Virus record (IMG/VR): IMGVR_UViG_3300042975_000096
Origin: a virus
Lineage: Duplodnaviria; Caudoviricetes
Length of the DNA: 64,000 nt
Direction: 5' to 3' (one strand)
This document shows, piece after piece, positions 9,523 through 61,769 of the stretch (the stretch's first letter is position 1; each line of letters opens with the position of its first letter). The position numbers and the translations under genes were made by a program. Under the pieces are notes generated by a model. The model was not told the origin of the DNA and did no database searches. It saw only the letters and a list, made by a program, of their open reading frames with translations.

Positions 9523-11562
9523 CTACCAGTTAATTGGCTCTTTTTGAATCAATACTCGTTTCTCAAAGGCGTTTTGCAAATCTTGAATGTGCGTAATTAC
9601 CATAATTTGTTTAAATATTCCATTCAACAAATTAACGCTTTCTAAGAACTTCTGTTTTGCTCCATCATCTTGACTTCCCAATCCCTCATCAATAATTAAG
9701 AAATCAATTGTTGCACCACTACGTTTTGTAAGAAATTTAGCCAATCCAATATGACAAGCAAAATCGATTCTAAACTTCTCTCCACCAGAATATGTTTCAT
9801 AACTTCTAGAACCATTAGAATCATTGATGAGAATGTCTAATGTATCAATTGATTTTTTTCCTTTTGCAGATTCTTTCTCTGTTTCATATTTAACCGACAT
9901 TGCATTATCAGTTAACAATCCTAAAATCTTATTGGTTTCATTTTCGATTTCAGGAATATCATGACTAATAATATCTTTTGGAATACCTGACTTACCAAAA
10001 GCTGTTGCCAAACTATTATAATCACTATACAATTCTTTTAATGAAGTCAATTGATTCTTCAATCGTTTAATTTCTTTTTGATTCTTTTTAAATGTATTAA
10101 TTTTATCTTTAATCAATGCAATTTTAGTATTATTACTATTAAACAATTGCGTACAATTATCCAATTCGTGCTTATACTCTGCATCTTTCCAATCTTTTGC
10201 TTCAACTTCAACAATCTTCATTTTTAAATTTTCAGCATATTCTTCCTGTAATTTATCTAGATTTTCTTTTTGATTAGAAATCATAAGCTGAATGCGCTTG
10301 ATTTTGTTTTTGTTTTCCTCACAAGCTTTTTGTTCCTCAATCAATTTCTTTTTTTCAATTGTTGCTTCTTTTCCCTGATTTGCATATTTTTTTGCTTTAG
10401 TCTTTATTGATTCGATTTTAATTTGATTTGAATCAATATTTGATTGTAATTCATCCATTTGCGTTTTCATTTCAGTCAAATGCTTTTGTTTATGTTCAGA
10501 AGATATTTCTCCACCACAAAAATCACAAACCGATTTATTATATTTTTCAAATCCAATATATTTTTTATTGATTTTATTAAAATCCGTTTGATAAAAATCT
10601 ATTTGTGTATCCAACTTCGACATAATTTCTTTTGCATCAGATATTTTTTGTTTTGCTTCATCAATAATATTTTGTTGATTTTCAATTTTTGATTCATCAA
10701 AATCACTATCTTCCATGTTTAATTCATTTTCCATGGATTCATATCTATTCAGATTTTGTTTTGCAGAGTCAATATCCGATTCAATACGTACACGATTAGA
10801 TTTAATATATTGATTTTGTTTTGCCAATACATTATATTCATTTTTATTTTTAATCTCTAGATTTAACTTTTCTGTTAAATCATCCATTTTTGGTTTCAAA
10901 TCAAAATCATTTTGGTTTTCTAGTGATTCAATTTCTTTCGTTTCTGCTTCAATATCACATTCTGTTTTTTGAATAAAATCAATCTGATTTTCAATTTCTG
11001 TCATCTTTTGTTTAGTTTCTTTTTTATTCTCTTTTGCTTCTTTTTCATATTGTTCATATTTTTGAATATCTAAAATCTGAACAAATGTTTCTTTTCTTTC
11101 AGCAGGTTTCTTATTCATAAACCTATCTGATTGACCCTGACCCAAACAAACCGTATCGAGGAATGTATTATAATTCATCTTCAAAACAGAATTAATTTTT
11201 TCTTGTGTCTCTGTAACTTTTTCACTTTGATTTATACCATCAATATAGAATTCCAGTTCTTTACTCTCTCCACGAACTTTTTTTGTTATAATTAAATATT
11301 CCACATTATTCATAACAAAACAAAATTCCAATTGGAAATAATCACAATCCGTATTAATGCACTTATCCAATCCACTTCCTTTTGAATCGGTTGCATCATT
11401 TACTCCATACAAAGCTGTTGTAATCATTTGAATCAATGAACTTTTTCCTGCACCATTTTCACCAATTACTACGAATTTATTTCCAAAATCCTCAAAATTT
11501 ATTTCCGCATCAATGTAGCTTCTAAATCCGTGAATTTTTAAATATTTTGGTAACATATTCAT
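9523..11562 (-). CDS. sbcC: SbcC/Rad50 (gp46-like) SMC-family ATPase
   Basis: Walker A GENGAGKS, Q-loop LGQG, zinc hook CDFC, signature YSGGE, Walker B LIIDEG, ITH; extreme C-terminus probably frameshifted. Confidence 0.95.
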   Translation of the reverse strand: MNMLPKYLKIHGFRSYIDAEINFEDFGNKFVVIGENGAGKSSLIQMITTALYGVNDATDSKGSGLDKCINTDCDYFQLEFCFVMNNVEYLIITKKVRGESKELEFYIDGINQSEKVTETQEKINSVLKMNYNTFLDTVCLGQGQSDRFMNKKPAERKETFVQILDIQKYEQYEKEAKENKKETKQKMTEIENQIDFIQKTECDIEAETKEIESLENQNDFDLKPKMDDLTEKLNLEIKNKNEYNVLAKQNQYIKSNRVRIESDIDSAKQNLNRYESMENELNMEDSDFDESKIENQQNIIDEAKQKISDAKEIMSKLDTQIDFYQTDFNKINKKYIGFEKYNKSVCDFCGGEISSEHKQKHLTEMKTQMDELQSNIDSNQIKIESIKTKAKKYANQGKEATIEKKKLIEEQKACEENKNKIKRIQLMISNQKENLDKLQEEYAENLKMKIVEVEAKDWKDAEYKHELDNCTQLFNSNNTKIALIKDKINTFKKNQKEIKRLKNQLTSLKELYSDYNSLATAFGKSGIPKDIISHDIPEIENETNKILGLLTDNAMSVKYETEKESAKGKKSIDTLDILINDSNGSRSYETYSGGEKFRIDFACHIGLAKFLTKRSGATIDFLIIDEGLGSQDDGAKQKFLESVNLLNGIFKQIMVITHIQDLQNAFEKRVLIQKEPINW

Positions 11563-11574
11563 TCCCCCAATGTT

Positions 11575-12387
11575 TTAATAATTCATATATAATGATTCTT
11601 GCACAAATACATTCTTTTTACGCAACCGATTAAAGCTAGACATCCCACTATCAATAAGAATGTGTCGTTTATAAATATCATTTGGCAACTCTACTTCAAA
11701 TGATTCATCTCCACGTTTTCCATCATAAGAAAGCATAAAACGAATATTTCTATCATTCAAATCTCTAAGAAAATCTATAAACTTATTATAATCAATTGTT
11801 CCAAAATACATTCCTTTTGTATGAAAATAAGGAGGGTCTAAATAAACAAAATCTTTATCTGTTGCTGTTTTTACTAAATCTGCATAACTTTTATGATAAA
11901 ACTTTGCATTTTGAATATTGCTTGTCCAATCCTCAATAATATTTCTTAGCTTCTTTGGATTAATACCTGGGCGGTTCAAATGAAAAGAATTATTAAATTC
12001 TCCCTTTTGATTAAATCGAATCAAACCATTCGTGCACGTTCTTGACAAAAATAATAGTTGCTCCGGTTTTTGTTCTTTGTTAAATAAGTCTCTCGTTTCA
12101 TAATAAACGTCCTGACCATTTTTCTGCAACTCTTTCCATAAACGTTCATATTCATTCATAATATGAATTGGATTATCACGAATTTCTTTCCACAAATCAA
12201 TCAACGGTTCGCAAATATCACCACAAATTGATTTTTTGGGATGTAAATTATACAAAATAGCCCCACCGCCAATAAACGGTTCATAATACGTATCGAATTC
12301 TTTTGGTACATATTTCAAAATTTCATCTGCCTGACTACGTTTACTTCCACTCCATTTTATAATTGGTTGCATATTATTTTTCCTCAC
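11575..12387 (-). CDS. Dam-family (D12 class) DNA adenine methyltransferase
   Basis: IKWSGSKR, YYEPFIGGG, catalytic YLDPPY. Confidence 0.9.
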   Translation of the reverse strand: MRKNNMQPIIKWSGSKRSQADEILKYVPKEFDTYYEPFIGGGAILYNLHPKKSICGDICEPLIDLWKEIRDNPIHIMNEYERLWKELQKNGQDVYYETRDLFNKEQKPEQLLFLSRTCTNGLIRFNQKGEFNNSFHLNRPGINPKKLRNIIEDWTSNIQNAKFYHKSYADLVKTATDKDFVYLDPPYFHTKGMYFGTIDYNKFIDFLRDLNDRNIRFMLSYDGKRGDESFEVELPNDIYKRHILIDSGMSSFNRLRKKNVFVQESLYMNY

Positions 12388-12791
12388 TCAATTCTATTTG
12401 CTTTATAACTATGAATCATATAATATTGTAAATTGCTAAAAAATCCTAATTCAAAAATTTGTTTTTTCAAATCAACCTCTTCTTTTTCGGATAATTTTAT
12501 TTCTATTTTCTTTCCATCTAAATGTTGCATATACATGCCATTTTCGTCAAATTTCAATTTTACCGCTAAAAAATTGTGATAAAAATCTAATTTTTTACCA
12601 ATAACAAATTCATTTGCACGTTCATCATCGCCAACACGCATATATTCCAATCCGTGACTATAAATAAAAGAATACATATCTCCCTTATAATGAAATCTTT
12701 TCATTGCGGTTGATACTTCTCCGATACTGACAAAAATACCATAAAAAATAAATTCGTTACATTCTACTGGCTTGAAAAACATAATTATCAC
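12384..12791 (-). CDS. Hypothetical protein
   Basis: 135-aa ORF overlapping both neighbours by 4 nt. Confidence 0.55.
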   Translation of the reverse strand: MIIMFFKPVECNEFIFYGIFVSIGEVSTAMKRFHYKGDMYSFIYSHGLEYMRVGDDERANEFVIGKKLDFYHNFLAVKLKFDENGMYMQHLDGKKIEIKLSEKEEVDLKKQIFELGFFSNLQYYMIHSYKANRIE

Positions 12792-13921
12792 GCACCTTCT
12801 TCAACTTTTTCAACAATTTCTTTTCCCAATTTGATACGTTCACTTTCACGTTTCTGCCCTTTATAAAAATGTTCTAACGCTTCTGTCACAGTTAGGGTAT
12901 TATCAATTGTATCATTTGTTGCTACAACCTTTTTGGGAATGATTTTTTGTAATTTCAATACATATTGAACACCATTATCATATGCAAATTGAATAATACT
13001 TTTTTCATCAAAAATCATATTATCATCTAATTCAATTTGAATTCGTAAAAAAGCATCATTAATATCCATTTTTGAAATTTCTTTTTTTATTTTATCCTCA
13101 ATTATTTTTGTGTTTGTTTCATCTTTTCCATCAACTCGAATTGTAACAAATTTTTGTGCATGTTCTAACTCAACGAACTTATGTTTTACCATTGACCCAT
13201 TTACATCCAATAATACAAAACCTTTTGGTTGTTTTCCTTCTGAAAAATCAATTCGATTTGCAGAACCACAATAATATACAAATGGCTCTTTATTAATAAT
13301 CTGATACTTATGAAAATGACCTAAAATAACCGCTAATATATTTTTCTTATTAAACACTTCTGGCTCAATACAAGCTTCATTATCCATAATTGTCCAGTCA
13401 TTTAATTGCGCATTTTTTATTGCCAAATGACCAATAACGATTGTTTTCTTTGAAGTGTCTAACGTATCCATAATGTTTTCTATTTCTTCTTTGGTATGAT
13501 GCGTTGGAAGAAATACGAATTGATATTCTTCATTATCAACAGTATAATTATCAATCATAAAGAATCTAGTTTGAATAATATTCGGCACATTCAATGCGGT
13601 AAATTGTGATAATCCTGAATTGAATGTTTCCATTTTTGACACATCATGATTACCATCTAGTACATATGTACGAATATTATTTTTAGATAATCTAGCAAAA
13701 GCTTCATTAACTTTATCTACAATTGTTGTAGAAGGTGAAGAATTTTTGTACATATCACCAGGAAACACTACAACATCAACACTGTTAGAAACTGCATAGT
13801 CAACAATTTCATTCAAAATGTTAATAGAATCAACCTCTCTAGAGTTTAATCCTGATTCCTTATCAATATGACCATAGGATTTATTGCCAATATGCAAATC
13901 TGCAAATGATAAAATTTTCAT
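12788..13921 (-). CDS. sbcD: SbcD/Mre11 (gp47-like) nuclease
   Basis: ADLHIG, GD, GNHD, GH, LGHFH, YCGS metallophosphoesterase motifs. Confidence 0.95.
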   Translation of the reverse strand: MKILSFADLHIGNKSYGHIDKESGLNSREVDSINILNEIVDYAVSNSVDVVVFPGDMYKNSSPSTTIVDKVNEAFARLSKNNIRTYVLDGNHDVSKMETFNSGLSQFTALNVPNIIQTRFFMIDNYTVDNEEYQFVFLPTHHTKEEIENIMDTLDTSKKTIVIGHLAIKNAQLNDWTIMDNEACIEPEVFNKKNILAVILGHFHKYQIINKEPFVYYCGSANRIDFSEGKQPKGFVLLDVNGSMVKHKFVELEHAQKFVTIRVDGKDETNTKIIEDKIKKEISKMDINDAFLRIQIELDDNMIFDEKSIIQFAYDNGVQYVLKLQKIIPKKVVATNDTIDNTLTVTEALEHFYKGQKRESERIKLGKEIVEKVEEGA

Positions 13922-13962
13922 TACATTCTCTCCTTTTTATATATATATACTTTCATTATATC

Positions 13963-13998
13963 AAAAAAGAAGGAATCTGTAAATAGATTCCTTCTTTT
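13963..13998 (-). terminator. Terminator after ruvC
   Basis: AAAAAGAAGGAATCT...AGATTCCTTCTTTTT. Confidence 0.75.
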
Positions 13999-14561
13999 TA
14001 TTTTGCTTTTTTTCGCGTTTTCTTCTTCTTTTCGACTTCTTGCCCGTCCATTATAACGTATGTCATACAACAACTGATTGAATCTGACATATCATCATTT
14101 AATGGTTTTATAAAATTTTCTTTACCGAAAAAATCAACTACTTTAGCCTGAACTTCCATCTTCATTTGCTTCCCGTCTTTTTTTGTACCATCAGCATTTT
14201 TAGTTTTTATACCACCTAACACTTTTGATTTTAATGTCATAACAGAATAATAATTAAATGGTATTTTAAATTTTTCCAACGTCATCATCATAACACCGTG
14301 GAAATTTGCTAATTTTTGAATCGTGTTTCGATTACTACCTACAAACGGTGCTTCTGCTGATACAACATCAGGACGAAATTTTTCAATAATATTGATTAAT
14401 TCTTTCTCAAAATTGACCAATGCTTCTGGAACGCTCATTTTACATCGCTCGATACATCCGTAATCTATTAATTCCATTTTATCATTTTTATATTCAACAA
14501 TGCTCCATCCAGTTGATTTTGTTGATACGTCTAATCCTAATATTTTGCAATCTTGTAGCAT
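13998..14561 (-). CDS. ruvC: RuvC-like Holliday junction resolvase
   Basis: ILGLDVSTKSTGWS, PDVVSAEAPF, DDMSDSI. Confidence 0.85.
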   Translation of the reverse strand: MLQDCKILGLDVSTKSTGWSIVEYKNDKMELIDYGCIERCKMSVPEALVNFEKELINIIEKFRPDVVSAEAPFVGSNRNTIQKLANFHGVMMMTLEKFKIPFNYYSVMTLKSKVLGGIKTKNADGTKKDGKQMKMEVQAKVVDFFGKENFIKPLNDDMSDSISCCMTYVIMDGQEVEKKKKTRKKAK

Positions 14562-14584
14562 TTTATCACCCAATATTATTATAT

Positions 14585-20493: not shown

Positions 20494-20643
20494 ATTTATC
20501 ACCTCAATCTTTATTAGTGTGAAAAACAAAAATATTATTATTTTTATCTATTTATGAAATAATTTAACTCAACCTTTATATATTCATTATGCTATCTAAC
20601 AATTTTATAATGAATGTATTTTTAAATATAAAAAAAACAGCAC

Positions 20644-23106
20644 TTAATTCGTGCTGTTTTTGTATGTTGATGCACACAAGTCAATGGTATCAACAGTAAT
20701 TCCACCAAAACCTTTTCTACCAGTAACTTTCACAATAGCATTAACAAAAATTTCTTTCTTATTTCTTTGATAAATATTATCCCAAACAGTTAATCGTATC
20801 GTTTCTCTAGGAGTTTGAATCACAACATTTTTGAAATCTTTTCCTTTTTTTGTCTGACGATTAATAATGTTTGTAATAATACCTGCTGTCCTTGTTATTT
20901 TTCCATCAGGTATGCTATCAAATGGAGGAAGATTCTTTAATTTATCCTCTAGCGGATGTGGAATAAATGTTAATGCAAATTTTTCCATTTCTTTCAGATA
21001 TTGGGATATTTTATTTTCTTTTAAATTAACAATATCATCATATGCTTTTTCAAAAGCTATTTCCTCTTTCGTTAATTTAATTTCTGCTTTTTCTTCTTTC
21101 AATATTCCTTTAGGTTTTTTTCTAGTCTTATAAGATAAAACCGCATCTTCCTTAAATCCGAATTGCTCTAGCATTGGTGATGGTATAACTAATGTACCAT
21201 CTTTTTCATAAATTAAATCATCACCGAATTCTTCTAAATATTTACCCTTAATCAAATCTTGGGGTATTGCATAATTCGGAACAGCTTTACTGCTCTTACA
21301 TTCTAAATATTGCTTATACCAAAGCTCTTGTTGCTCACGATTCATATAAACAGCAACCGTATTTTCATCGTGTTGTTTAATCGTTAATGTTCCAATATCC
21401 TCATAATCAATAAGATTTTGGTTCACAATTAATGCAATGTTTTCAAATGCACCAATATCAATTCCAGCTTCAACGACAGCTTTTCCACCGCCTTTTCCAC
21501 CTTTATTCTTTAAGAAAAATTCTTGAAAATTAGCGAATGGTTGATTTGGCACTAAATCTTCAACTGCCTTTTCTCCAATTCCTTTTACGCATTTCAAGCC
21601 CATACGAATGACATTATTATCTATATCTTCAATTATAGATTCATACTTTGATTTTGAAATATCAGGTGGAGCAATTACAATGCCGTGTCGTTTTGCTTCT
21701 TTCATACATTCTTGTAAACTATCAACTGATTCTGTATTGAATAATGATACATAAAATACCAATGGATAGTTAGCTTTTACCCATGCTGTCCAATATGAAA
21801 TGAATGAATATGCGATAGAATGTGATTTATTGAATAGATATGCACAATTATCTAAGATTGCTTTACGAATATCTTCACAAGCTTTTCTGTCAATTCCACG
21901 TTTTACGCCTTCAGTAACAGATTTTTCCTCAAATTCTTTTACTAATTCAACATTTCCCTTTTTATTTGGCTTTTCCAACGCTCTACGATAAATATCAGCC
22001 TTACCAAAAGAAACCCCTAACAGCTCACTTATCAAAGACATAATTTGTTCCTGGTAAACGATTCCTCCCATAGTAACTGCCAAATGTTTATCCAAAATTG
22101 GATGGAATTTTCTTATTTTACTTGGGTCTTTCTTTGCAGCACAGTATTCATCCAATCCACTAGTTCCTGGGCGCACAAATGCGTTAACTGCTGAAAGTTC
22201 CTCTATGTTTCTTGGTTTTATTTTTCTAATAATATCTTTACCAATTGGAGAAGACATCTGAAAAATTCCCATGGTATCACATGAACAAATTAAATCCCAT
22301 GATTTTTTATCATCCATGGGAATATCTTCCAATTTCATATCAACCTTATAAACTTTTTTCAATACTTCCATTTGGTTATACAATGCACTAATATTTTTTA
22401 ATCGAAGTATATCTAGTTTTACTGCTCCTGCTGTTTCAACATTTTCTTTTTCAAATTGTGCCATTAATCCAACAAAACCATTAGGCGTTGGAGTAGCTTC
22501 CTCAACAGGCATTAAATCGGTTATAGGCATTGGCGTTACGCAAATACCTGCTGGATGCTGAGAATGATGTCTAGGTGCACCATATAGCTTTTCACAATGT
22601 TGAAAAACACCTTGATGTTTTGCAAAAAAAGCCTTTAATTCTTTTATTTCTAAAAGCTCTTTGAATTCCTTAAAATCTTTTCCATCCTTTGGAACAAATT
22701 TAGTAATTGCATTAACTTCTGAAATTGGGACTTCAAATGCTCGACTAACGTCTTTAATTATTGCTCTTGCTTGCAAATTAGAAAATGTAATGATATTACA
22801 ACAATGGTCTTTACCATATAATTTATTTAAATGTTCAAAAACCTGTGAACCTTTAAAAATGCAAAAATCCGAATCAATATCAGGCAAATGTCCTCTATCT
22901 GCATTTAGAAAACGGTCAAAAATCAAATCATACTTCATAGGATTAACCTGCGTAATATTCAAAGCATAATTAACTAATGACCCTGCACCACTATTATGAA
23001 CAATTAGTCCATCAATATTATACGAATGCGCATCTTCAACAGTTAAATCATATACTTTTCCTTTATATGAGGAAATTTCTTTTTTCGTTATTTGTTTAAA
23101 TTTCAA
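20644..23106 (-). CDS. dnaE: DNA polymerase III alpha, C-terminal half, with N-terminal split-intein C fragment
   Basis: First 38 aa end VYDLTVEDAHSYNIDGLIVHN, then SGAGSLV; catalytic PDIDSDF, HPAG, KLDIL, YQEQIM, FNKSHS, OB-fold C-terminus. Confidence 0.95.
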   Translation of the reverse strand: MKFKQITKKEISSYKGKVYDLTVEDAHSYNIDGLIVHNSGAGSLVNYALNITQVNPMKYDLIFDRFLNADRGHLPDIDSDFCIFKGSQVFEHLNKLYGKDHCCNIITFSNLQARAIIKDVSRAFEVPISEVNAITKFVPKDGKDFKEFKELLEIKELKAFFAKHQGVFQHCEKLYGAPRHHSQHPAGICVTPMPITDLMPVEEATPTPNGFVGLMAQFEKENVETAGAVKLDILRLKNISALYNQMEVLKKVYKVDMKLEDIPMDDKKSWDLICSCDTMGIFQMSSPIGKDIIRKIKPRNIEELSAVNAFVRPGTSGLDEYCAAKKDPSKIRKFHPILDKHLAVTMGGIVYQEQIMSLISELLGVSFGKADIYRRALEKPNKKGNVELVKEFEEKSVTEGVKRGIDRKACEDIRKAILDNCAYLFNKSHSIAYSFISYWTAWVKANYPLVFYVSLFNTESVDSLQECMKEAKRHGIVIAPPDISKSKYESIIEDIDNNVIRMGLKCVKGIGEKAVEDLVPNQPFANFQEFFLKNKGGKGGGKAVVEAGIDIGAFENIALIVNQNLIDYEDIGTLTIKQHDENTVAVYMNREQQELWYKQYLECKSSKAVPNYAIPQDLIKGKYLEEFGDDLIYEKDGTLVIPSPMLEQFGFKEDAVLSYKTRKKPKGILKEEKAEIKLTKEEIAFEKAYDDIVNLKENKISQYLKEMEKFALTFIPHPLEDKLKNLPPFDSIPDGKITRTAGIITNIINRQTKKGKDFKNVVIQTPRETIRLTVWDNIYQRNKKEIFVNAIVKVTGRKGFGGITVDTIDLCASTYKNSTN
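22993..23106 (-). other. Split intein C fragment (IntC, 38 aa)
   Basis: Block F VYDLTV and block G terminal HN followed by a Ser +1 nucleophile; basic N-terminal part. Confidence 0.9.
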
Positions 23107-23129
23107 TAATCTTCCCCCTTTATATATTT

Positions 23130-23159
23130 AGTATATTGCATTTTCTGTTTTTTTGTCTA
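23130..23159 (-). promoter_or_regulatory. Sigma-A-like promoter for dnaE-C
   Basis: TAGACA-18 nt-TATACT upstream of the GGGGA RBS and TTG start. Confidence 0.55.
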
Positions 23160-23161
23160 GT

Positions 23162-23458
23162 TATTGGATTCACGCACCCGTACAGGGTGCGACGAGATGG
23201 TACAACTGAAGAAGTTAGTACCTTATGTGTTTCAATTCACGCACCTCTGCGAGGTGCGACTCTGACATGATTAAAAAATCTAAAGCATTGCAAATTTCAA
23301 TTCACGCACCTCTGCGAGGTGCGACTGACGGAGACAAAATAAATTATAGCCGTTGGTCAATTTCAATTCACGCACCTCTGCGAGGTGCGACGTTGGATAT
23401 CCTGCCCTGTCTTACCCTCTGCCACTATTTCAATTCACGCACCTCTGCGAGGTGCGAC
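23162..23458 (-). CRISPR. Type I-C-like CRISPR mini-array 1 (5 repeats, 4 spacers of 35/33/34/35 nt)
   Basis: 32-nt repeat GTCGCACCTCGCAGAGGTGCGTGAATTGAAAT (minus strand) at 23229, 23294, 23360, 23427, plus a degenerate trailer repeat at 23162. Confidence 0.95.
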
Positions 23459-23658
23459 AACACACATGCCAAAGCCTTGCTACGCAAGGGCTGAAATGGC
23501 ACTTTGTGCGAACCCCTAACTATTTTACAAAATTCGTTTACATTTCCCCATGTAAACCTCAATGAACCCTGTAAAACAAAGAGGTGCGAAGCACCTAGTG
23601 TTTTTCTGTTCACTTATGCTTCGCACTTATTATAACATTTTATCCATTCATTTGTCAA
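23459..23658 (-). promoter_or_regulatory. CRISPR leader 1 with sigma-A promoter
   Basis: Near-identical to 25274-25473 and 33450-33649; TTGACA-18-TATAAT with TG extension at 23629-23658. Confidence 0.9.
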
Positions 23659-23748
23659 GCTGATTATCTCAAAATAACCATAGCATCAATAAAAATTATG
23701 ATTATTCAACTCTGTTAATTCTTTTTTTCTTAATATATTACATATCCA

Positions 23749-23985
23749 TTAACAATCCCCTCCGCAATCTCCACCGTCGAATCCACCATATCCACCGTCA
23801 AAGCCACCGCCATTAAGTCCAACATCACCAGTTGGATAATCTGTACCTTGACCTTGATTAGGATTATCTAAGTTAAAATCTACGTTATTAATATTATTAT
23901 CTCCATAGCCCCAATACCATGGCAAACCATAATATGCATGATAAGGCGAACCTGGAAATTTAACCAATCTTTTTTTTGTTGCCAT
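23749..23985 (-). CDS. Small aromatic/Gly-rich low-complexity protein
   Basis: 78 aa, RBS AGGTGG, N-terminal KKRL, GGFDGG repeats. Confidence 0.6.
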   Translation of the reverse strand: MATKKRLVKFPGSPYHAYYGLPWYWGYGDNNINNVDFNLDNPNQGQGTDYPTGDVGLNGGGFDGGYGGFDGGDCGGDC

Positions 23986-23989
23986 TTTA

Positions 23990-24280
23990 TTACCACCTAA
24001 TATTTAATTTGTTCTTATTTCTTGTTACTTCATATAACGAATCCTTCAATGCACGTACAATTGAATTTACATTTTTTTCATCTTCCACAAAATAAAATAT
24101 CTGATGTTTACTTTTGTTATTTAAAATAGCCAATGTGATTTCATTCAATTCTTTAGTGAACGAATCAGTTGAATTTACTTGTTCAGCAGAAATAATATAT
24201 ATTGGCACTTGTGTTTCCCATTGCATATTATTTTTACCTATATCATAGCCAACATTTTCAAAATTAAAATCAAACATCAT
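23990..24280 (-). CDS. Hypothetical protein
   Basis: 96-aa ORF with RBS AAAGGA. Confidence 0.55.
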   Translation of the reverse strand: MMFDFNFENVGYDIGKNNMQWETQVPIYIISAEQVNSTDSFTKELNEITLAILNNKSKHQIFYFVEDEKNVNSIVRALKDSLYEVTRNKNKLNIRW

Positions 24281-24319
24281 TTTGGGTTTTCCTTTCTTTT
24301 TATATAGTATATTAAAATT

Positions 24320-24982
24320 TTATATACTATTTCTTTTGCCATAAATATCTTTTACTTTATATTTTCGCAATTCTTCATCTAATTCAGCAGAACCCTGAAA
24401 AAATGGATATGCATACTTATCAGGAATATATAAATTTTTCTTAAACCAATCCACGCACATAAACGTATCTGATTTAATAAATTCTTCATATTGTGTATAA
24501 TTTCGATTACACAACATTCCATTAAGAATATCCATACCTGGTACTGCTAATTTTGATTGAATTGCATACATTTTATTTAATATTTTCATTTTATTTATAT
24601 CTTTTGATATTTTATACATTCTCCATAATCTATTCTCATCATTCTTGCCATTAACATAAACAAAATCATGAAAATACGAATGCATACCTAATTCAAATCC
24701 ATGATTATTTAATAAATCTTCTATTTCATATATATTTAAAAATTGATTATTACCATTTATTCGATAATCCCATTGATAATACACCTCTGACGGCTCTTCT
24801 TTTCTTTTAGTAAAAGAAACATATGTTGGAACAATAAATATTATTTTTTTACAATCAATTTTATCCAATTCATATCTATATTTAAAAACATTATAGTGAG
24901 CATCATCAAACGTCAATACATCATTTTTTTCTATTTTTCTATTAAATATTTTAGCCACATCATCATGAATACAAAAAATCAT
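24320..24982 (-). CDS. Polysaccharide deacetylase (NodB/CE4)-like protein
   Basis: LTFDD, ELGMHSYFH, YAYPF motifs. Confidence 0.75.
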   Translation of the reverse strand: MIFCIHDDVAKIFNRKIEKNDVLTFDDAHYNVFKYRYELDKIDCKKIIFIVPTYVSFTKRKEEPSEVYYQWDYRINGNNQFLNIYEIEDLLNNHGFELGMHSYFHDFVYVNGKNDENRLWRMYKISKDINKMKILNKMYAIQSKLAVPGMDILNGMLCNRNYTQYEEFIKSDTFMCVDWFKKNLYIPDKYAYPFFQGSAELDEELRKYKVKDIYGKRNSI

Positions 24983-25047
24983 ATCACCACAACTCCTTCT
25001 ACTAGTATAATATGATTTTTACAATTAATTTATTCATTTTCTTTATT

Positions 25048-25273
25048 TATTTTATTCACGCACCCGTATGGGTGCGACCGAAATGGATGCAGACCATGTA
25101 ACGGCATGGAGTATTTCAATTCACGCACCTCGCAGAGGTGCGACATTATGATTTTTCGCATCAAGTCAAGGTGTATATTTCAATTCACGCACCTCTGCGA
25201 GGTGCGACACGCCCTATAAAAAATCAAAAATGTGTTATGACATTTCAATTCACGCACCTCTGCGAGGTGCGAC
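25048..25273 (-). CRISPR. Type I-C-like CRISPR mini-array 2 (4 repeats, 3 spacers of 34/32/33 nt)
   Basis: Repeats at 25113, 25177, 25242 plus a degenerate trailer ending at 25078. Confidence 0.95.
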
Positions 25274-25473
25274 AGCACACATGCCAAAGCCTTGCTACGC
25301 AAGGGCTGAAATGGCATTTTGTGCGAACCCCTAACTATTTTACAAAATTCATTGACATTTCCCCATGTAAACCTCAATGAACCCTGTAAAACAAAGGGGT
25401 GCGAAGCACCTAGTGTTTTTCTGTTCACTTATGCTTCGCACTTATTATATCATTTAATTTATTATTTTGTCAA
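25274..25473 (-). promoter_or_regulatory. CRISPR leader 2 with sigma-A promoter
   Basis: Copy of leader 1; TTGACA-18-TATAAT at 25444-25473. Confidence 0.9.
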
Positions 25474-25481
25474 GTGGTTTT

Positions 25482-25733
25482 TTATTCAAATGAAAATCCT
25501 TTAACATTATTTTCTTCATCACAAATAGCATTTATAATTTCTTTAATGTTTTCTTTTTGTTCTGTATATACGCTACTTTTCATTTTGGAAGCACCATCAC
25601 CATCAACAAAAACAGGAAATTTTGCAGAATGACCCACTCTACCTAAATGTTCCATATATAACAACATTAAATCAATTTGTTCTAGCTGTTCTTTTGTTCC
25701 AACAACTTCATAAGTTTTCTTATATTGTTGCAT
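25482..25733 (-). CDS. Hypothetical protein
   Basis: Likely start MQQYKK with RBS AAGGA; GRVGHS...VDGDG motif. Confidence 0.55.
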   Translation of the reverse strand: MQQYKKTYEVVGTKEQLEQIDLMLLYMEHLGRVGHSAKFPVFVDGDGASKMKSSVYTEQKENIKEIINAICDEENNVKGFSFE

Positions 25734-25749
25734 AACTGTATTTCCTTTC

Positions 25750-26526
25750 TTACCAACCACCAGAAGCTCCACCGCCACCAGAGCTTCCTCCACCAAATCC
25801 GTCTCCGTCATCTCCATCTCCAATGCAAGATAGAAGAACGTTAAATATTACTTCTAGCAATCCAGTCTTTGCTAAGAAAATAATTGCAATAATTACTAAA
25901 ACGCCTATTCCACATTGTTCAATTAAAGTTAAAGATAATATAAATAAAACCAAATCGCCTAGAAATCCACCACTTATCGGAACACTTTCTTGAAACGTTT
26001 CTCTTTCCGGTTGCACCTCGCCATATTCTTCATATGTCATTCCAACCAAATCTTGATAAACTGTAAAGACTCCTTCGGAAAATTTATTATCTTTAAAATA
26101 CGGGGCTAATTTTTGAAGTTCTTCTCCTGCCATACCATCAGTTATTTTACCTTCCATTCCATAACCAATTTCTATGCGGAATTTTTTATCATTTTTAGAG
26201 ATAAGCAATAATATTCCATTATTCTTATCTTTGCTACCTATTCCCCATTGTCTAAATAATTCATTTGAATATGATTCAATATCAGAACCATTTAATGAAT
26301 CTACCGTTACAACAACAATTTGCGCATGATGCTTATTGTCTAATTCTTTTCCCATTGCCAATATTTTCTTCTTGCATTCATCATTTAACATATGTGCATT
26401 GTCTTGAACATAAATATCACTTTTTGGTTTATCAGGATATTTTATTGTACCATTATTATTCCCACAGCCAACCAATATAGCCATAATCATTGCGCACAAC
26501 AATACACAATATACAAATTTTCTCAA
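25750..26526 (-). CDS. TPM-domain (YgcG-like) membrane lipoprotein
   Basis: Lipobox LVGC, VQDNAHML, WGIGSKDKNNGILLLI, RIEIGYGMEG, TM helix, FGGGSSGGGGASGGW tail. Confidence 0.9.
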   Translation of the reverse strand: MRKFVYCVLLCAMIMAILVGCGNNNGTIKYPDKPKSDIYVQDNAHMLNDECKKKILAMGKELDNKHHAQIVVVTVDSLNGSDIESYSNELFRQWGIGSKDKNNGILLLISKNDKKFRIEIGYGMEGKITDGMAGEELQKLAPYFKDNKFSEGVFTVYQDLVGMTYEEYGEVQPERETFQESVPISGGFLGDLVLFILSLTLIEQCGIGVLVIIAIIFLAKTGLLEVIFNVLLSCIGDGDDGDGFGGGSSGGGGASGGW

Positions 26527-26595
26527 ATTTATTCACCTTTGCTTATAAATATAGCTATTGCACACATGTACAATAGCTATATTTGTTTTATTTAA

Positions 26596-27153
26596 TTAGA
26601 ATTCAACCTTTGGTGCGGATTTTGCATTATCATCTGCTTTAAATTGTTCCATCGTCTGGAATCCAAATACATTAGCAAACATATTCCCCGGGAATGTAGT
26701 AACCTTCAGGTTATAATTTCTAACAGCCCCAACATAATCCTTACGTGCCACAGCAATACGGTTTTCTGTACCTGCAAGCTCATTCATAAGCTGAGTATAC
26801 TGTTTATCAGCCTTCAAGTTTGGATAGTTTTCCACAACCATCATGAGTCTAGACAATGCGCCATTCAGTTCTGTATTTGCTTCATCCTTCTGAACAGGTG
26901 TTTGTGCAGAACCCATTTTGGCTCTTGCATCTGCAACTGCCTGAATTGCCTTTTCCTCATGAACTGAATATCCCTTAACAGTGTTTACCAAATTAGGAAT
27001 CAAGTCATAACGGCGTTGCATTTGATTTTCTACCTGTGACCATTGTGTGTCCACATTGACTTTAGAACTTTGCATTCCGTTATACTCTCCCACACAAAAC
27101 AATGCAAGAACTACAAATACTCCTGCAATAATCCATTTCATTTGTTTGCTCAT
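26596..27153 (-). CDS. lemA: LemA family protein
   Basis: QRRYDLIPNLV, ENYPNLKA, ELAGTENRIAVAR, FPGNMFA. Confidence 0.95.
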   Translation of the reverse strand: MSKQMKWIIAGVFVVLALFCVGEYNGMQSSKVNVDTQWSQVENQMQRRYDLIPNLVNTVKGYSVHEEKAIQAVADARAKMGSAQTPVQKDEANTELNGALSRLMMVVENYPNLKADKQYTQLMNELAGTENRIAVARKDYVGAVRNYNLKVTTFPGNMFANVFGFQTMEQFKADDNAKSAPKVEF

Positions 27154-27515
27154 TTTTTCAAATCTCCTTCAAAACTTTTTTTATCTTTAGTTTCACGAAT
27201 GCCATTAATAATTTGCTGTGAAACACGAGTCATTTTATCCACAATTTCAAGCAACTCATCTTCATTATCAGAACAATAAAAATTATTCTGTTTCATTTGA
27301 TATTCATTATGTTTCATATATGTTTCTAAAGTCAATAATTCACGTTTAAATGATTGAATATTATAATTTAATCCCAAAAGAGATTTGTTATAAACCTGTC
27401 CAACTTCCCGTGCAAGTCCTTTACACAACGTTTCAGACATTTGCTTATTAACAAACTCATCGTTTTCTTTTTCAACGTCAATTCCTTCTGGTGGTAAAAC
27501 AATTTTCATATCCAT
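27150..27515 (-). CDS. Hypothetical protein
   Basis: 121-aa ORF with RBS AAGGAG. Confidence 0.6.
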   Translation of the reverse strand: MDMKIVLPPEGIDVEKENDEFVNKQMSETLCKGLAREVGQVYNKSLLGLNYNIQSFKRELLTLETYMKHNEYQMKQNNFYCSDNEDELLEIVDKMTRVSQQIINGIRETKDKKSFEGDLKK

Positions 27516-27608
27516 GTTAAACTCTCCTTTTTTTATATTAATTATTATATTAAAATTGAAAAAACAATTTTAATTTCCTTTTTATTATATGATATATTTT
27601 CAATTTTA

Positions 27609-28025
27609 TCAATCAAAAATATTACCAATAACATTAATAGCATGGTTTGCAACATAACATTTCAAATAATCTCTACTACCATCTTCAAATTCAATATCAA
27701 AGCACCCATCATTGAATTTTACAATCCCATTATATTTTTTCAAATAACAGCTAACAATATCATTTTCATAAATAAGTTTATGATTATTATCAGCCATATC
27801 TGAACACATACATACTGTATCACCATCAACTTCTGCACGAAGATGCTGATTGGGTAAATTCCAATCAGTCATTGAATCGTAAACAATATAATGTTTTTTA
27901 TTGTTTTTTCTTTCTTCTTCTGAAATTTCATCCTCAAAACAAAATGTTGTTTCCTCTAAACAAATATAATATCCAGTTACAAAATGTTCGGAATCTATCA
28001 ACTTAGCTCTCGCTTTTAACACCAT
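27609..28025 (-). CDS. YopX-family phage protein
   Basis: LKARAK...V.GYY, DNNHKLIYENDIV, C-terminal VIGNIFD; likely start at 28025. Confidence 0.8.
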   Translation of the reverse strand: MVLKARAKLIDSEHFVTGYYICLEETTFCFEDEISEEERKNNKKHYIVYDSMTDWNLPNQHLRAEVDGDTVCMCSDMADNNHKLIYENDIVSCYLKKYNGIVKFNDGCFDIEFEDGSRDYLKCYVANHAINVIGNIFD

Positions 28026-29085
28026 ACTCGCCACCTTTTTTAAGAATAGCATTTTGCAATGATACAGGTGATATTGGTAATGGTAAATCTTCCAATACGG
28101 AATAATCACAATCATAAGCATTACACATTTTTTTCGCCAAATCAATATCTAAATATGACATTTCAAATGTATAATCAAATCTTCCAGGGCGCACTAATGC
28201 TTTATCTAATTCATCAAATCGATTTGTAGTTGCAACAAAAATGCAATTAGTTGGTGATAATGCACCATCTAAAACATTTAATAACGTTTGCATAATATCG
28301 TTCTTATCATTATCTCTATCCGTTACCAAACAATCAATATCCTCAATCAAATAAACCGTTTTGTCACTAACCAAAGAAGAATATGATAATTTCTTATCTT
28401 TTACAGATATATATTCAATATTCCAATTCAGATAAGAAGCAATTGCTCGTGCCATAGATGATTTTCCAGTACCAGGTTTACCATAAAACAAAAATCCCAA
28501 CTTATATGTGATTCCATGTTGAACATAAAAACTTTTTTTGTTTTTCCACTCATCCAAAATATTTTTTATTTCGTCTGTGTGCTGTGTAAACACATCATTT
28601 ATATTACGTTTCAATGCCCAAATCCATCCAATATCACTTTTTATAATGATACTATTTTCTTTCCCTGGAAGTTTATCGCTTAAATATTCTTTATAACCAG
28701 CTAAATATTTGTTTTTATTTTTTCCTATGATTTGGAGTTTTATCGAATATATTACTGAATATGCACTAGCTTTATCTAAGATTGTACTGTCAACAATAGC
28801 AAACGTTAAACCATCCAATTTCATATAATATGTACCTGTTGCTAAAACTACACCAGCCAAACAATTTCTAGAATATCGCACATGTCGTTTTAAGCTATTT
28901 GAGCCATTTACAGAAAAAACCCAATCCATTGAATTACTGTATATTTCCCCTTCTTCTGAACAAAACTGTATAGTAGAAGAGTTTAATTGAACTAAAACAC
29001 TGAATAATTTAGATGGAATATCTTTTAAAATAAATCCAAAGTAACCAAACAATGCAACAATTACACCTTGACTTAAAAAATCCAT
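28003..29085 (-). CDS. BCS1-like membrane-anchored AAA+ ATPase
   Basis: N-terminal TM segment, GFLFYGKPGTGKSS, LIEDID, LLNVLDG, LDKALVRPGRFD. Confidence 0.85.
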   Translation of the reverse strand: MDFLSQGVIVALFGYFGFILKDIPSKLFSVLVQLNSSTIQFCSEEGEIYSNSMDWVFSVNGSNSLKRHVRYSRNCLAGVVLATGTYYMKLDGLTFAIVDSTILDKASAYSVIYSIKLQIIGKNKNKYLAGYKEYLSDKLPGKENSIIIKSDIGWIWALKRNINDVFTQHTDEIKNILDEWKNKKSFYVQHGITYKLGFLFYGKPGTGKSSMARAIASYLNWNIEYISVKDKKLSYSSLVSDKTVYLIEDIDCLVTDRDNDKNDIMQTLLNVLDGALSPTNCIFVATTNRFDELDKALVRPGRFDYTFEMSYLDIDLAKKMCNAYDCDYSVLEDLPLPISPVSLQNAILKKGGEYGVKSES

Positions 29086-29099
29086 TTAATTTTCCCCTT

Positions 29100-29597
29100 C
29101 TACTCATTCTTATTTTTGATGAAATTTATAATTCTATCGACATCTTCTCTTTTCTTACCGAAAGAATACAAAATATTTTTTAACGTATTAATCTTTACTT
29201 CTGGATTCTTTTTATCCGAATCAATCCCAACATCAACGAATTGAATATTTATGTTTGTTAGAATTGACTTGTCAACGTTTTTAAAAAATAAATTTTTATC
29301 ATTAAATTCAATGGGGAATTCATTTTTCAAAAAACAAAAAATCGTATCCAATCTTTTGTTTCCATCTAAAATGATAAATTTATTATGTTTATCTTTATGG
29401 TAAAAAATAGGAACGTTAGGAAATCCTAAAAATAATGATTGAATATATGATTTTTTATTTTCTAAATCAAAAAATGTATCAGAATAAATTACAGAATTGT
29501 AATTATTTATCATTGATTTCAATTTAATCAAATTCATTTCTTCCGTATTATTAATGATTTTTCCCATTTTGGTTTTATAATCAATATCCGAAAACAT
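29100..29597 (-). CDS. Stand-alone DUF262 (ParB-like) domain protein
   Basis: YIQSLFLGFP.PIF and ILDGNKRL.TI..F (DGQQR variant). Confidence 0.7.
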   Translation of the reverse strand: MFSDIDYKTKMGKIINNTEEMNLIKLKSMINNYNSVIYSDTFFDLENKKSYIQSLFLGFPNVPIFYHKDKHNKFIILDGNKRLDTIFCFLKNEFPIEFNDKNLFFKNVDKSILTNINIQFVDVGIDSDKKNPEVKINTLKNILYSFGKKREDVDRIINFIKNKNE

Positions 29598-29625
29598 AAT
29601 ACATTTCCCCCATTTTCATAAATGT

Positions 29626-31299
29626 TTAACTTTCACCTTCACAAATATAATCGCCACAATCTAATTCTTCAGCACGATACCATTTTGGCTCTCGAATACC
29701 ATTATCAAAATCATGTTTTTTAATTGCCAATATTTTATGGTCTAAAGTAACATTTTTAATCACTTTTTCATCACAAGCAATTGAAGCAACCTTTTCTTCA
29801 ATATCATATTCATGTTTTGCAATCACCGGATGTTTCAATTCATCATGACAATAAACGACATCTCCAATAGAAACATTCTTTAATGGTTTAATCCCGTTTG
29901 TTGTTTTAACAACGTTATCTCCATCAAAGCAACCTCTACCTGGACCCAATGGCACATTATTTGTATGGCAAAAATCAGCAATATCATAATAAATCAAAAA
30001 ATAATCTGGGAAATCCATCTTATCAATAATTCCCAATTCATATTTAAGTCTATCACGATATTCTTTTGAAGTCAACTTCTTTTCCCTAAGACCCTTAATG
30101 CAAAGATATTTTAAATAATCCTCATTTGGTTTTTCAGGGTGACTAAGTTTGCTTCTCCATTTTTTAAATCCAGGCTCTTCAACAGGAATATTGATTTTTG
30201 GAAGATAATGTTTATCAAAACCAAAATGTACATTACATTGTTTTGCGATTTCTTCTGATTCATCAATTGCTTTTTCAATTGCAACCTGGTCTAAATCATT
30301 ATAATCAATTGTTCCTTCTTCTAGAACATCAATAAATCTATCATGAAACTTTTCGCTATCTTTTTCTACATATTTCATGCCATCATAAATTTTATCAGGC
30401 GATTCATATCTAGCACCATCATAATCATAAACATAAAATTCTTTATCAACATTACGCTTTTCATTATGAACTAAGATTTTTTTATATTTCATTTTTTTCT
30501 TAAATGAAGCAACAATTTCATCCCTAGACATAACATAATAAGAATTCCCCTGAAATCTCCATCTACTAGGGTCACTCATTAAACTTCCACTCTGCAAACA
30601 CAAAAGTACATCATGTGTGCTTTTATCTTCTTTATTGAGATAATGCGCATCTGTTGTAGCAACCAAAGGAATGCTCAAATCTTTGCTAAGTTCAATCAAT
30701 CCCTTATTTACCTTAAACTGCTCTACCATTTCTGTAGGTTGAATTTCCAACCAAAAATTACCATTAAATAATTTTTGATAATATAATGCCTGTTCTTTTG
30801 CAGATTCATAATCATCATGCAATAAACTTTGAGAAATAATTCCTGCCAAACAAGCGGATGTGCCAATTAAATCATTTTCTTTTTCGTCCATAAACATTTT
30901 TAAAACATTGTTATCAATTCTAGGACGATAATACTTTCCTGTAATGAATCCTTCAGAACAAATCTTACATAATTTTTTATAACCATTATTATTTTTAGCT
31001 AAAAGCAAAAAGTGATTTCTATTTGTAGTTGATTCATCTTCTGATTCAGACTTGCCCTTAATCAGTCTATCTTTAACCATATATGCTTCAAAACCAGCTA
31101 TTGGTTTTTGCCCCATTTTTTCTGCTCGTTTAAAGTGGTCAATAATAGTATACATGTTTCCATGGTCTGTAATACAAGATGCAATCTGATTCATTGCTAA
31201 TGTTTTATCAACCAAATCATTTACTTTTATCATTCCATCCAACAAACTACGTTCTGAATGTAAATGTAGATTAACAAAATTATTACTCAAAATATGCAC
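29626..31299 (-). CDS. dnaE: DNA polymerase III alpha, N-terminal half (PHP domain), with C-terminal split-intein N fragment
   Basis: FVNLHLHSERSLLDG, ITDHG, ATTDAHY, FPDYFLI, GPGRG followed by intein CFDGD... Confidence 0.95.
   Translation of the reverse strand: MHILSNNFVNLHLHSERSLLDGMIKVNDLVDKTLAMNQIASCITDHGNMYTIIDHFKRAEKMGQKPIAGFEAYMVKDRLIKGKSESEDESTTNRNHFLLLAKNNNGYKKLCKICSEGFITGKYYRPRIDNNVLKMFMDEKENDLIGTSACLAGIISQSLLHDDYESAKEQALYYQKLFNGNFWLEIQPTEMVEQFKVNKGLIELSKDLSIPLVATTDAHYLNKEDKSTHDVLLCLQSGSLMSDPSRWRFQGNSYYVMSRDEIVASFKKKMKYKKILVHNEKRNVDKEFYVYDYDGARYESPDKIYDGMKYVEKDSEKFHDRFIDVLEEGTIDYNDLDQVAIEKAIDESEEIAKQCNVHFGFDKHYLPKINIPVEEPGFKKWRSKLSHPEKPNEDYLKYLCIKGLREKKLTSKEYRDRLKYELGIIDKMDFPDYFLIYYDIADFCHTNNVPLGPGRGCFDGDNVVKTTNGIKPLKNVSIGDVVYCHDELKHPVIAKHEYDIEEKVASIACDEKVIKNVTLDHKILAIKKHDFDNGIREPKWYRAEELDCGDYICEGES
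29629..29931 (-). other. Split intein N fragment (IntN, 101 aa)
   Basis: Block A CFDGDNVVKT..G.K....V.IGD.V, block B VTLDHKI (TxxH), W..AEEL..GD, then stop. Confidence 0.9.
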
Positions 31300-33234: not shown

Positions 33235-33449
33235 ATTTCGATTCACGCACCTCGTAGAGGTGCGACGTTAGCAAGGTAGCAGATAACAAGCGATTAGCGG
33301 ACATTTCAATTCACGCACCCATACAGGGTGCGACTATCAGGATTGCACAAATTTCAATTCACGCACCTCTGCGAGGTGCGACGTTATATTTCTTTTCCGT
33401 TTCTCTATTTTATCTATATTTCAATTCACGCACCTCTGCGAGGTGCGAC
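33235..33449 (-). CRISPR. Type I-C-like CRISPR mini-array 3 (4 repeats; spacers of 36/16/35 nt)
   Basis: Repeats at 33235, 33303, 33351, 33418. Confidence 0.95.
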
Positions 33450-61699: not shown

Positions 61700-61736
61700 A
61701 ATTACACCCCATCTTTTTTATAATATTTATTATATT

Positions 61737-61768
61737 AAAAGGACGTACAATTAAGCACGTCCTTTTTT
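61737..61768 (-). terminator. Terminator after clpX
   Basis: AAAAGGACGT...ACGTCCTTTT. Confidence 0.7.
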
Positions 61769-61769
61769 A

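What the first reader, a model, noticed from the sequence alone, without database searches (positions are those of the whole stretch)
20644..31299. Phage DNA polymerase III alpha split by a natural trans-splicing intein at a non-cyanobacterial site, halves 6.5 kb apart
Seen: the N gene ends GPGRG|CFDGD...(101-aa IntN with TxxH); the C gene starts with a 38-aa IntC ending HN|SGAGS. Ligation restores the conserved DnaE GPGRGSxAGS motif. The region matching the cyanobacterial split site (EY|CFNKSH) is uninterrupted here (AYLFNKSH), so this is an independent split. Known phage split-intein genes usually have a free-standing homing endonuclease between the halves; here about ten unrelated genes and two CRISPR mini-arrays lie between them, and the C half has its own promoter. 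Inference: replication depends on protein trans-splicing that could be regulated, and the Cys1/Ser+1 pair is a candidate new orthogonal split intein.
Basis: partly seen in the sequence, partly recalled or inferred. Interest (0 to 1): 0.85.

Follow-up and report, generated by a model that had tools for sequence, protein, structure and literature searches.

The report
Jumbo-phage DNA polymerase with split intein
A giant bacterial virus encodes its DNA-copying enzyme as two genes 6.5 kb apart whose protein products most likely stitch themselves together. This kind of gene is already known, but here it belongs to a large family that shows how the two halves drift apart.

Summary
Observation confirmed. 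dnaE-N (29626-31299, minus strand) ends GPGRG|C plus a 101-aa IntN. dnaE-C (20644-23106) starts with a 38-aa IntC ending HN|SGAGS. Ten genes and two type I-C-like mini-arrays fill the 6,519-nt gap.

It is not a mis-assembly: an independent assembly of a sister strain has the same split with an 8.9-kb gap. All splicing residues are intact in 31 distinct split loci, and the intein is under purifying selection (dN/dS 0.045). Ser+1 equals E. coli S364 of the nucleotide pocket. Trans-splicing is therefore very likely (about 0.87) but untested.

The site holds cis inteins in Bacillus phage G and virus PhiF1, and Dassa 2009 already reported phage-like DnaE split inteins at non-cyanobacterial sites. 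I did not find the family series described: cis mini-intein, then about 1-kb gaps with an endonuclease, then endonuclease remnants, then cargo-filled gaps of 2.4-22.7 kb. That series fills the gap between steps III and IV of Dassa's model. Regulation has no support and orthogonality is untested. This scan found the same family before on other DNA (e1-5641666, e1-5641654, e1-5468299).

The parts
29626..31299 (-). dnaE-N gene: PHP domain and start of the palm, ending at GPGRG, fused to IntN
29629..29931 (-). IntN, 101 aa: Cys1, block B T62/H65, net charge -7; four further Cys (28, 53, 92, 97)
20644..23106 (-). dnaE-C gene: IntC, then Ser+1, catalytic PDIDSD and KLDIL motifs, fingers, HhH and C-terminal region
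22993..23106 (-). IntC, 38 aa: basic N-terminal strand, block F Asp20, His37-Asn38
23130..23159 (-). sigma70-like promoter candidate for dnaE-C (10/12), followed by a Shine-Dalgarno-like run
   Evidence: consensus match only
20633..20661 (-). intrinsic-terminator-like hairpin after dnaE-C
23162..23659 (-). type I-C-like CRISPR mini-array (5 repeats, last degenerate, 4 spacers) with 233-nt leader and 12/12 promoter, directly upstream of dnaE-C and co-oriented
   Evidence: type assigned from repeat sequence by own knowledge
25047..25474 (-). second mini-array (3 repeats plus a degenerate terminal one) with a 95% identical leader and 12/12 promoter
29100..29597 (-). cargo gene, GmrSD N-terminal (DUF262-like) domain, below Pfam cut-off; not a recognised homing endonuclease
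28003..29085 (-). cargo gene, AAA ATPase
27609..28145 (-). cargo gene, YopX family (probable start further in; 138 aa in sister strain)
27150..27515 (-). cargo gene, 121 aa, no family
26596..27153 (-). cargo gene, LemA
25750..26526 (-). cargo gene, TPM domain
25482..25823 (-). cargo gene, about 110 aa, unknown
24320..24982 (-). conserved gap-core gene, polysaccharide-deacetylase-like (lead only)
23990..24280 (-). conserved gap-core gene, 96 aa, unknown
23749..23985 (-). conserved gap-core gene, 78-aa Gly/Tyr/Asp-rich peptide

Best explanation
The phage makes its DnaE as two precursors. SHOWN in sequence: intact class 1 intein halves at the GPGRG|SGAGS junction, conserved and under selection. 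INFERRED from established intein chemistry: acidic IntN and the basic first strand of IntC associate into a HINT fold; Cys1 makes the N-S shift, Ser+1 takes over the N-extein, Asn38 cyclises, and a 1,235-aa DnaE results with its Gly-Ser nucleotide pocket (E. coli G363-S364) restored. INFERRED history: a cis mini-intein at this site was fractured by a free-standing PD-(D/E)xK endonuclease gene. In this lineage the endonuclease was lost, the C half gained its own expression signals, and the gap became a tolerant landing site for genes and CRISPR cassettes. Splicing is most likely constitutive; the arrangement is a fixed relic of selfish elements rather than a switch.
For: C1, TxxH, block F Asp, HN and Ser+1 are kept in all 31 distinct split loci and are invariant in alignments at 32-80% identity. 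dN/dS over the intein is 0.045 against the sister strain (10 synonymous, 2 non-synonymous changes) and 0.06-0.11 in other close pairs. The joined exteins align in one piece with intein-free DnaE (1,015 columns, E 2e-167). Ser+1 aligns to E. coli S364, which forms the incoming-nucleotide pocket with G363 (PMC4374717). Model of IntN with IntC: score 0.74, best of 3 controls 0.00; the mark was reached by 58 of 80 solved complexes and 2 of 110 mismatched pairs; runs agree in at least 94% of contacts; partner pLDDT at least 74. The counts hold only roughly with my own alignments, and the pass may be from memory of solved inteins. Three complete relatives with this split show one DnaE and no family A or B polymerase. 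The window sits in a starred 13-row clade with a 138-aa cis mini-intein (52% identity), an endonuclease-split locus (L028) and a locus with an endonuclease remnant (L013). Relatives have terminators after IntN or before the C gene and promoter-like sites before the C gene.
Against: The window's own whole genome was not available, so sole-polymerase status is inferred from relatives. No strong terminator separates the two genes in this strain, so separate transcripts are not shown here. The tree rests on 134 columns with a midpoint root, so the order of events is not proven; the cis mini-intein could be a re-fusion.
Confidence: 0.87

Rival explanations
1. The intein halves only clamp the two chains together, and the polymerase works unspliced.
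For: Intein-free two-chain DnaE enzymes exist in other jumbo phages (PMC7824862). An unchecked scan note describes dead intein halves in another phage (e1-1965151).
Against: Every catalytic residue is invariant here. The break lies between the two residues of the Gly-Ser nucleotide pocket, where an attached intein would be expected to obstruct the active site (inference).
Confidence: 0.05
2. Splicing is a regulated step (redox, temperature, or timing through separate promoters) that gates phage replication. This is compatible with trans-splicing.
For: The C half probably has its own promoter and lies downstream of a strong CRISPR-leader promoter. IntN has five Cys.
Against: There is no extein Cys near Cys1. 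The extra Cys are not invariant. The array upstream of dnaE-C is absent in relatives. Gap size and content vary freely from 14 nt to 22.7 kb. Any two-gene enzyme has two expression units, so that is not evidence of control.
Confidence: 0.1
3. The gap is a giant intron, and RNA splicing fuses the halves into a cis mini-intein.
For: DnaE genes of relatives are interrupted elsewhere by large intron-like inserts (phage G, L009, L015). Both genes are co-oriented.
Against: IntN ends in a stop codon at 99-103 aa and IntC has its own start and ribosome site at 38 aa across the clade. The gap edges are not conserved, and four relatives have a terminator right after the IntN stop. Group I-like motifs sit at the edges of most of the intron-like inserts in relatives but not at these gap edges (crude patterns). 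Rfam finds nothing, but it also missed the relatives' inserts, so that negative is weak.
Confidence: 0.02
4. The split is an assembly artefact or a dead gene.
For: No reads could be laid on the region.
Against: Five independent contigs carry the same IntN-terminated gene with the same downstream neighbour, and L002 holds both halves 8.9 kb apart. Dozens of diverged phages share the split. Purifying selection acts on extein and intein.
Confidence: 0.01

Closest known systems
Fractured genes with split inteins, including loci DnaE-1 to -3 (Dassa et al. 2009, PMC2677866)
   Same: Phage-type DnaE split by a natural intein at a non-cyanobacterial point. IntN 88-105 aa and IntC 33-54 aa fit 101 and 38. 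Eleven relatives at this very site have the published layout, with an endonuclease-motif ORF running into the C-gene start.
   Different: There is no endonuclease or remnant in this gap; it holds 6.5 kb of cargo and CRISPR arrays. Whether the site equals one of the three 2009 DnaE points could not be checked (no supplement held).
Cyanobacterial split DnaE intein (Ssp/Npu DnaE; Wu 1998 and Caspi 2003, as cited in PMC2677866)
   Same: Replicative DnaE from two genes joined by trans-splicing; typical split position; no endonuclease.
   Different: The site differs (the FNKSH region is intact here). The +1 residue is Ser rather than Cys (Cys from own knowledge). The intein is distant in sequence (IntC profile E 0.17-0.22 to 4lx3_B and 4qfq_B, which I know as Npu chains). 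The cyanobacterial split is described as one event, while one clade of split forms is rejected here (p-AU 6e-6).
Bacillus phage G gp329 and Methanobacterium virus PhiF1 DnaE cis inteins
   Same: Same insertion site, GPGRG|C...HN|S. Phage G is the best isolate match to the polymerase.
   Different: These are contiguous inteins of 245 and 357 aa; the phage G intein is 32% identical to this one.
Split minimal Pol III alpha of group 2.2 jumbo phages (Iyer et al. 2021, PMC7824862)
   Same: DnaE-type enzyme from distant genes in jumbo phages.
   Different: No intein is described there, it is a minimal core, and it accompanies a family B polymerase. Here the enzyme is full length with PHP, as in group 3.2.
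Pseudomonas phage MIJ3 split PolB intein (PMC6892783)
   Same: Jumbo-phage polymerase with a split intein and a cis mini-intein relative.
   Different: Family B polymerase, with an HNH gene still between the halves.

Membership tests
Naturally split class 1 intein | Cys/Ser1 at the start of IntN and block B TxxH | tested here: met
   C1, T62, H65 invariant in 28 sequences
Naturally split class 1 intein | Block F Asp, terminal His-Asn, and Cys/Ser/Thr at +1 | tested here: met
   D20, H37, N38, S39 invariant; TIGR01443 above cut-off
Naturally split class 1 intein | Halves in separate ORFs whose exteins join to a colinear host protein | tested here: met
Naturally split class 1 intein | Halves assemble into one HINT domain | tested here: inconclusive
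   Model 0.74 vs best control 0.00 (58 of 80 solved, 2 of 110 mismatched reach the mark); may be from memory of solved inteins; not a measurement
Naturally split class 1 intein | Protein trans-splicing activity | not testable with these tools
   needs a bench assay or proteomics
Dassa-type fractured gene | Split intein in a phage DNA-metabolism gene, halves in order on one strand | tested here: met
Dassa-type fractured gene | Free-standing homing endonuclease between the halves | tested here: not met
   No endonuclease family among the ten ORFs and no remnant by tblastn with 11 relatives' endonucleases; met in relatives at the same site
Dassa-type fractured gene | Same integration point as DnaE-1, -2 or -3 | not testable with these tools
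   sequences not held
Cyanobacterial split DnaE intein allele | Insertion just before the FNKSH motif | tested here: not met
   motif uninterrupted; the cyanobacterial DnaE-C model matches from C-half residue 420
DnaE-type Pol III alpha | PHP, palm with three catalytic Asp, fingers, HhH | tested here: met
Group I/II intron-interrupted gene | Intron core RNA at the gap edges | tested here: inconclusive
   none found, but Rfam also missed inserts in relatives

The most novel reading that the evidence does not exclude
The GPGRG|S site of phage DnaE is a recurrent fracture point that yields a large untapped family of Cys1/Ser+1 split inteins, mutually divergent and orthogonal to Npu and gp41-1. 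In phage G-like jumbo phages the two halves have become separately expressed units, so splicing through the nucleotide pocket acts as a real two-input gate on the start of phage DNA replication.
Probability: 0.15. Interest if true: 0.7.

Novelty: new variant of a known kind. Interest (0 to 1): 0.45.

Why it matters
The 2009 gene-breaking model predicted that, after loss of the invading endonuclease, the halves of a split-intein gene drift apart, but it showed only the end points. This family supplies the series at one site, with gaps from 14 nt to 22.7 kb, and one clade of split forms is rejected. That makes the model testable by comparative genomics. The 31 distinct intact pairs, 27-99% identical to this one, are also a pool of candidate protein-ligation tools with Ser+1. 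This particular IntN has four extra cysteines, so it is not a cysteine-free tool. The single locus is not a new kind of biology.

Tried and rejected
- The whole genome was not held, and the nearest virus record lacks the locus.
- The exact window protein is not on record. A single-protein scan of IMG/VR found nothing; alignments worked.
- No relative was found in GTDB genomes, and the repeat has no exact match there, so the host is not identified.
- IntN alone has no PDB hit.
- Idea that gap spacers target intein-free dnaE alleles, replacing the lost endonuclease: no match among fetched loci. The search space was small, so this is unsupported rather than excluded.
- Idea that the CRISPR array is part of dnaE-C control: relatives lack arrays there.
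- Single origin of all split forms: rejected.
- Rfam as an intron test had no working positive control.
- Literature searches found no paper on this site or on this clade's split. The library lacks most subscription journals and InBase.
- Charge segregation: split IntNs are more acidic on average than cis ones (-8.8 vs -3.1), but rows are related and this IntN is only -3 over residues 1-90, so I give it little weight.
Full report
OBSERVATION. Two minus-strand ORFs carry the pieces. The first, 29626-31299, has a PHP domain and the first 69 positions of the Pol III alpha NTPase model. It ends GPGRG followed by Cys and 100 more residues with a TLDH motif. The second, 20644-23106, opens with 38 residues ending HN, followed by SGAGS and the rest of the enzyme. 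The 38-mer passes the curated TIGR01443 cut-off. Joined exteins give 1,235 aa that align in one piece to intein-free DnaE. The cyanobacterial split region is intact. The gap is 6,519 nt with ten genes (GmrSD-N-like, AAA, YopX, LemA, TPM, a deacetylase-like lead, four unknown) and two mini-arrays with duplicated 233-nt leaders.

IS IT REAL? Five contigs from other samples encode the 99% identical N gene with the same neighbours. L002 holds both halves 8,898 nt apart, with extra genes and different spacers. Against it the intein has 10 synonymous and 2 non-synonymous changes, dN/dS 0.045; the N extein gives 0.026. Mis-assembly and decay are excluded for practical purposes, although no reads could be examined.

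THE FAMILY. About 30 database proteins end in a 98-109-aa IntN at the same junction, on contigs up to 500 kb. More than 20 begin with a matching IntC. Scans of viral and metagenome contigs gave 31 distinct split loci and 38 cis loci at this site. All split ones keep C1, TxxH, the block F Asp, HN and Ser+1. Intein-free alleles also occur. Two isolated viruses carry cis inteins here: Bacillus phage G (245 aa) and Methanobacterium virus PhiF1 (357 aa). Phage G is the best isolate match to the polymerase, consistent with a group 3.2 jumbo phage in the sense of PMC7824862. The site is therefore a common one, not a new one.

THE SERIES OF GAPS. Eleven loci, mostly with gaps of 0.8-1.1 kb, hold a 277-353-aa ORF with a PD-(D/E)xK motif whose end runs into the approximate IntC start. 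Three such ORFs gave sub-threshold hits to TnsA-like endonucleases. This is the fractured-gene layout of PMC2677866. L013, L086 and L101 retain only remnants. L090 and L040 have gaps of 14 and 115 nt. Jumbo-phage relatives have cargo-filled gaps of 2.4, 4.8, 5.5, 6.4, 7.3 and 9.0 kb, and 13.7 and 22.7 kb in complete records. The window's gap has no endonuclease or remnant. On an intein tree the window falls in a starred 13-row clade with a 138-aa cis mini-intein (L015, 52% identity), the endonuclease-split L028 and the remnant L013. Holding all split forms together is rejected (p-AU 6e-6), so splitting or re-fusion happened more than once. The tree has only 134 columns and no true root, so the order is inferred from the published model rather than shown.

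MECHANISM. Ser+1 aligns with E. coli alpha S364. G363 and S364 form the pocket for the incoming nucleotide (PMC4374717). The break thus runs between these two residues, and the catalytic aspartates lie in the C half. An active enzyme most likely needs the peptide bond restored (inference). A model of IntN with IntC scored 0.74 against a best control of 0.00. The mark was reached by 58 of 80 solved and 2 of 110 mismatched pairs, the runs agreed in at least 94% of contacts, and partner pLDDT was at least 74. Since split inteins have been solved, this shows likeness rather than binding. Three complete relatives with this split show one DnaE and no family A or B polymerase. Whether a host polymerase could substitute is unknown.

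EXPRESSION. Terminators follow the IntN stop in L017, L018, L104 and L062, and precede the C gene in L017, L009, L110, L112 and L062. Promoter-like sites with local shuffle p of 0.04 or less lie before the C gene in six large-gap loci including this one, and in none of the endonuclease-containing loci. This fits the idea that the C half acquired its own signals as the gap grew. In the window itself, dnaE-C could also be read from the strong leader promoter of the adjacent array, whose last repeat still folds. That is not conserved in relatives and I treat it as incidental.

RIVALS. A non-splicing clamp is unlikely given the invariant catalytic residues. RNA-level joining is unlikely given conserved stop and start positions and terminators, although relatives do have intron-like breaks elsewhere in dnaE and my Rfam test had no working control. 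Regulated splicing has no positive evidence.

COMPARISON AND VERDICT. The locus is by sequence a natural split class 1 intein. It works like cyanobacterial split DnaE but is not that allele. It descends from, but no longer meets, the endonuclease-containing fractured-gene definition. I could not check whether the site equals one of the three DnaE points of 2009. I found no paper on cargo-expanded gaps in phages, within a library that is incomplete. Earlier scan notes describe the same family in the 416-kb and 504-kb relatives; I measured those gaps myself, and the notes are not independent support. Class: new variant of a known kind. Interest 0.45.

Noticed in passing
window 23749-24982; L002 12309-15587; L018, L104, L017, L009: A conserved core inside the gap of eight relatives: deacetylase-like gene, about 100-aa gene, and a Gly/Tyr/Asp-rich 70-85-aa peptide. 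A radical SAM gene follows in L002, L018 and L104; this resembles a peptide-modification cassette. The window lacks a 2-kb block with the radical SAM gene at about 23743 relative to its sister strain.
   Followed up: partly
window 23162-23458, 25047-25273, 33235-33449 vs L002-L004: Sister strains with 99% identical dnaE share almost no spacers in these cas-less arrays, which points to fast spacer turnover. The third array has a truncated 16-nt spacer.
   Followed up: partly
L001 5998-16761 (Bacillus phage G); L009 15132-20613; L015; L062: Relatives break the DnaE C part into 3-4 more ORFs with intron-like inserts. In phage G one break spans 5 kb with seven genes, and L009 breaks at the same residue.
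   Followed up: partly
L096/L097 and L085/L095: Closely related cis mini-intein and endonuclease-split alleles sit side by side on the tree: candidates for recent fracture or re-fusion.
   Followed up: no
L011 6799-9913; GCA_024712465.1: Relatives with halves more than 10 kb apart still have NUMOD3 or faint LAGLIDADG genes directly upstream of dnaE-C.
   Followed up: no
P0007, P0009, P0010, P0012-14, P0018: Several relatives carry a further cis intein inside the PHP domain of the N half.
   Followed up: no
L016 1057-2229: In one relative a beta-clamp-like gene lies in the gap right after dnaE-N.
   Followed up: no
window 27150-27515 and about 27615: The 121-aa ORF is called as two 60-aa ORFs in sister strains, which also carry an extra 164-aa gene just upstream.
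   Followed up: no
window 9523-14573, 60044-62972: SbcC-like ATPase, metallophosphoesterase, RuvC, RecJ and a ClpX-like ATPase: a replication and recombination region. Strand and GC skew switch near 38.2 kb.
   Followed up: no
L030, L036, L046, L050: IntC-like segments followed by Cys (CGGSL) instead of Ser at the equivalent junction.
   Followed up: no
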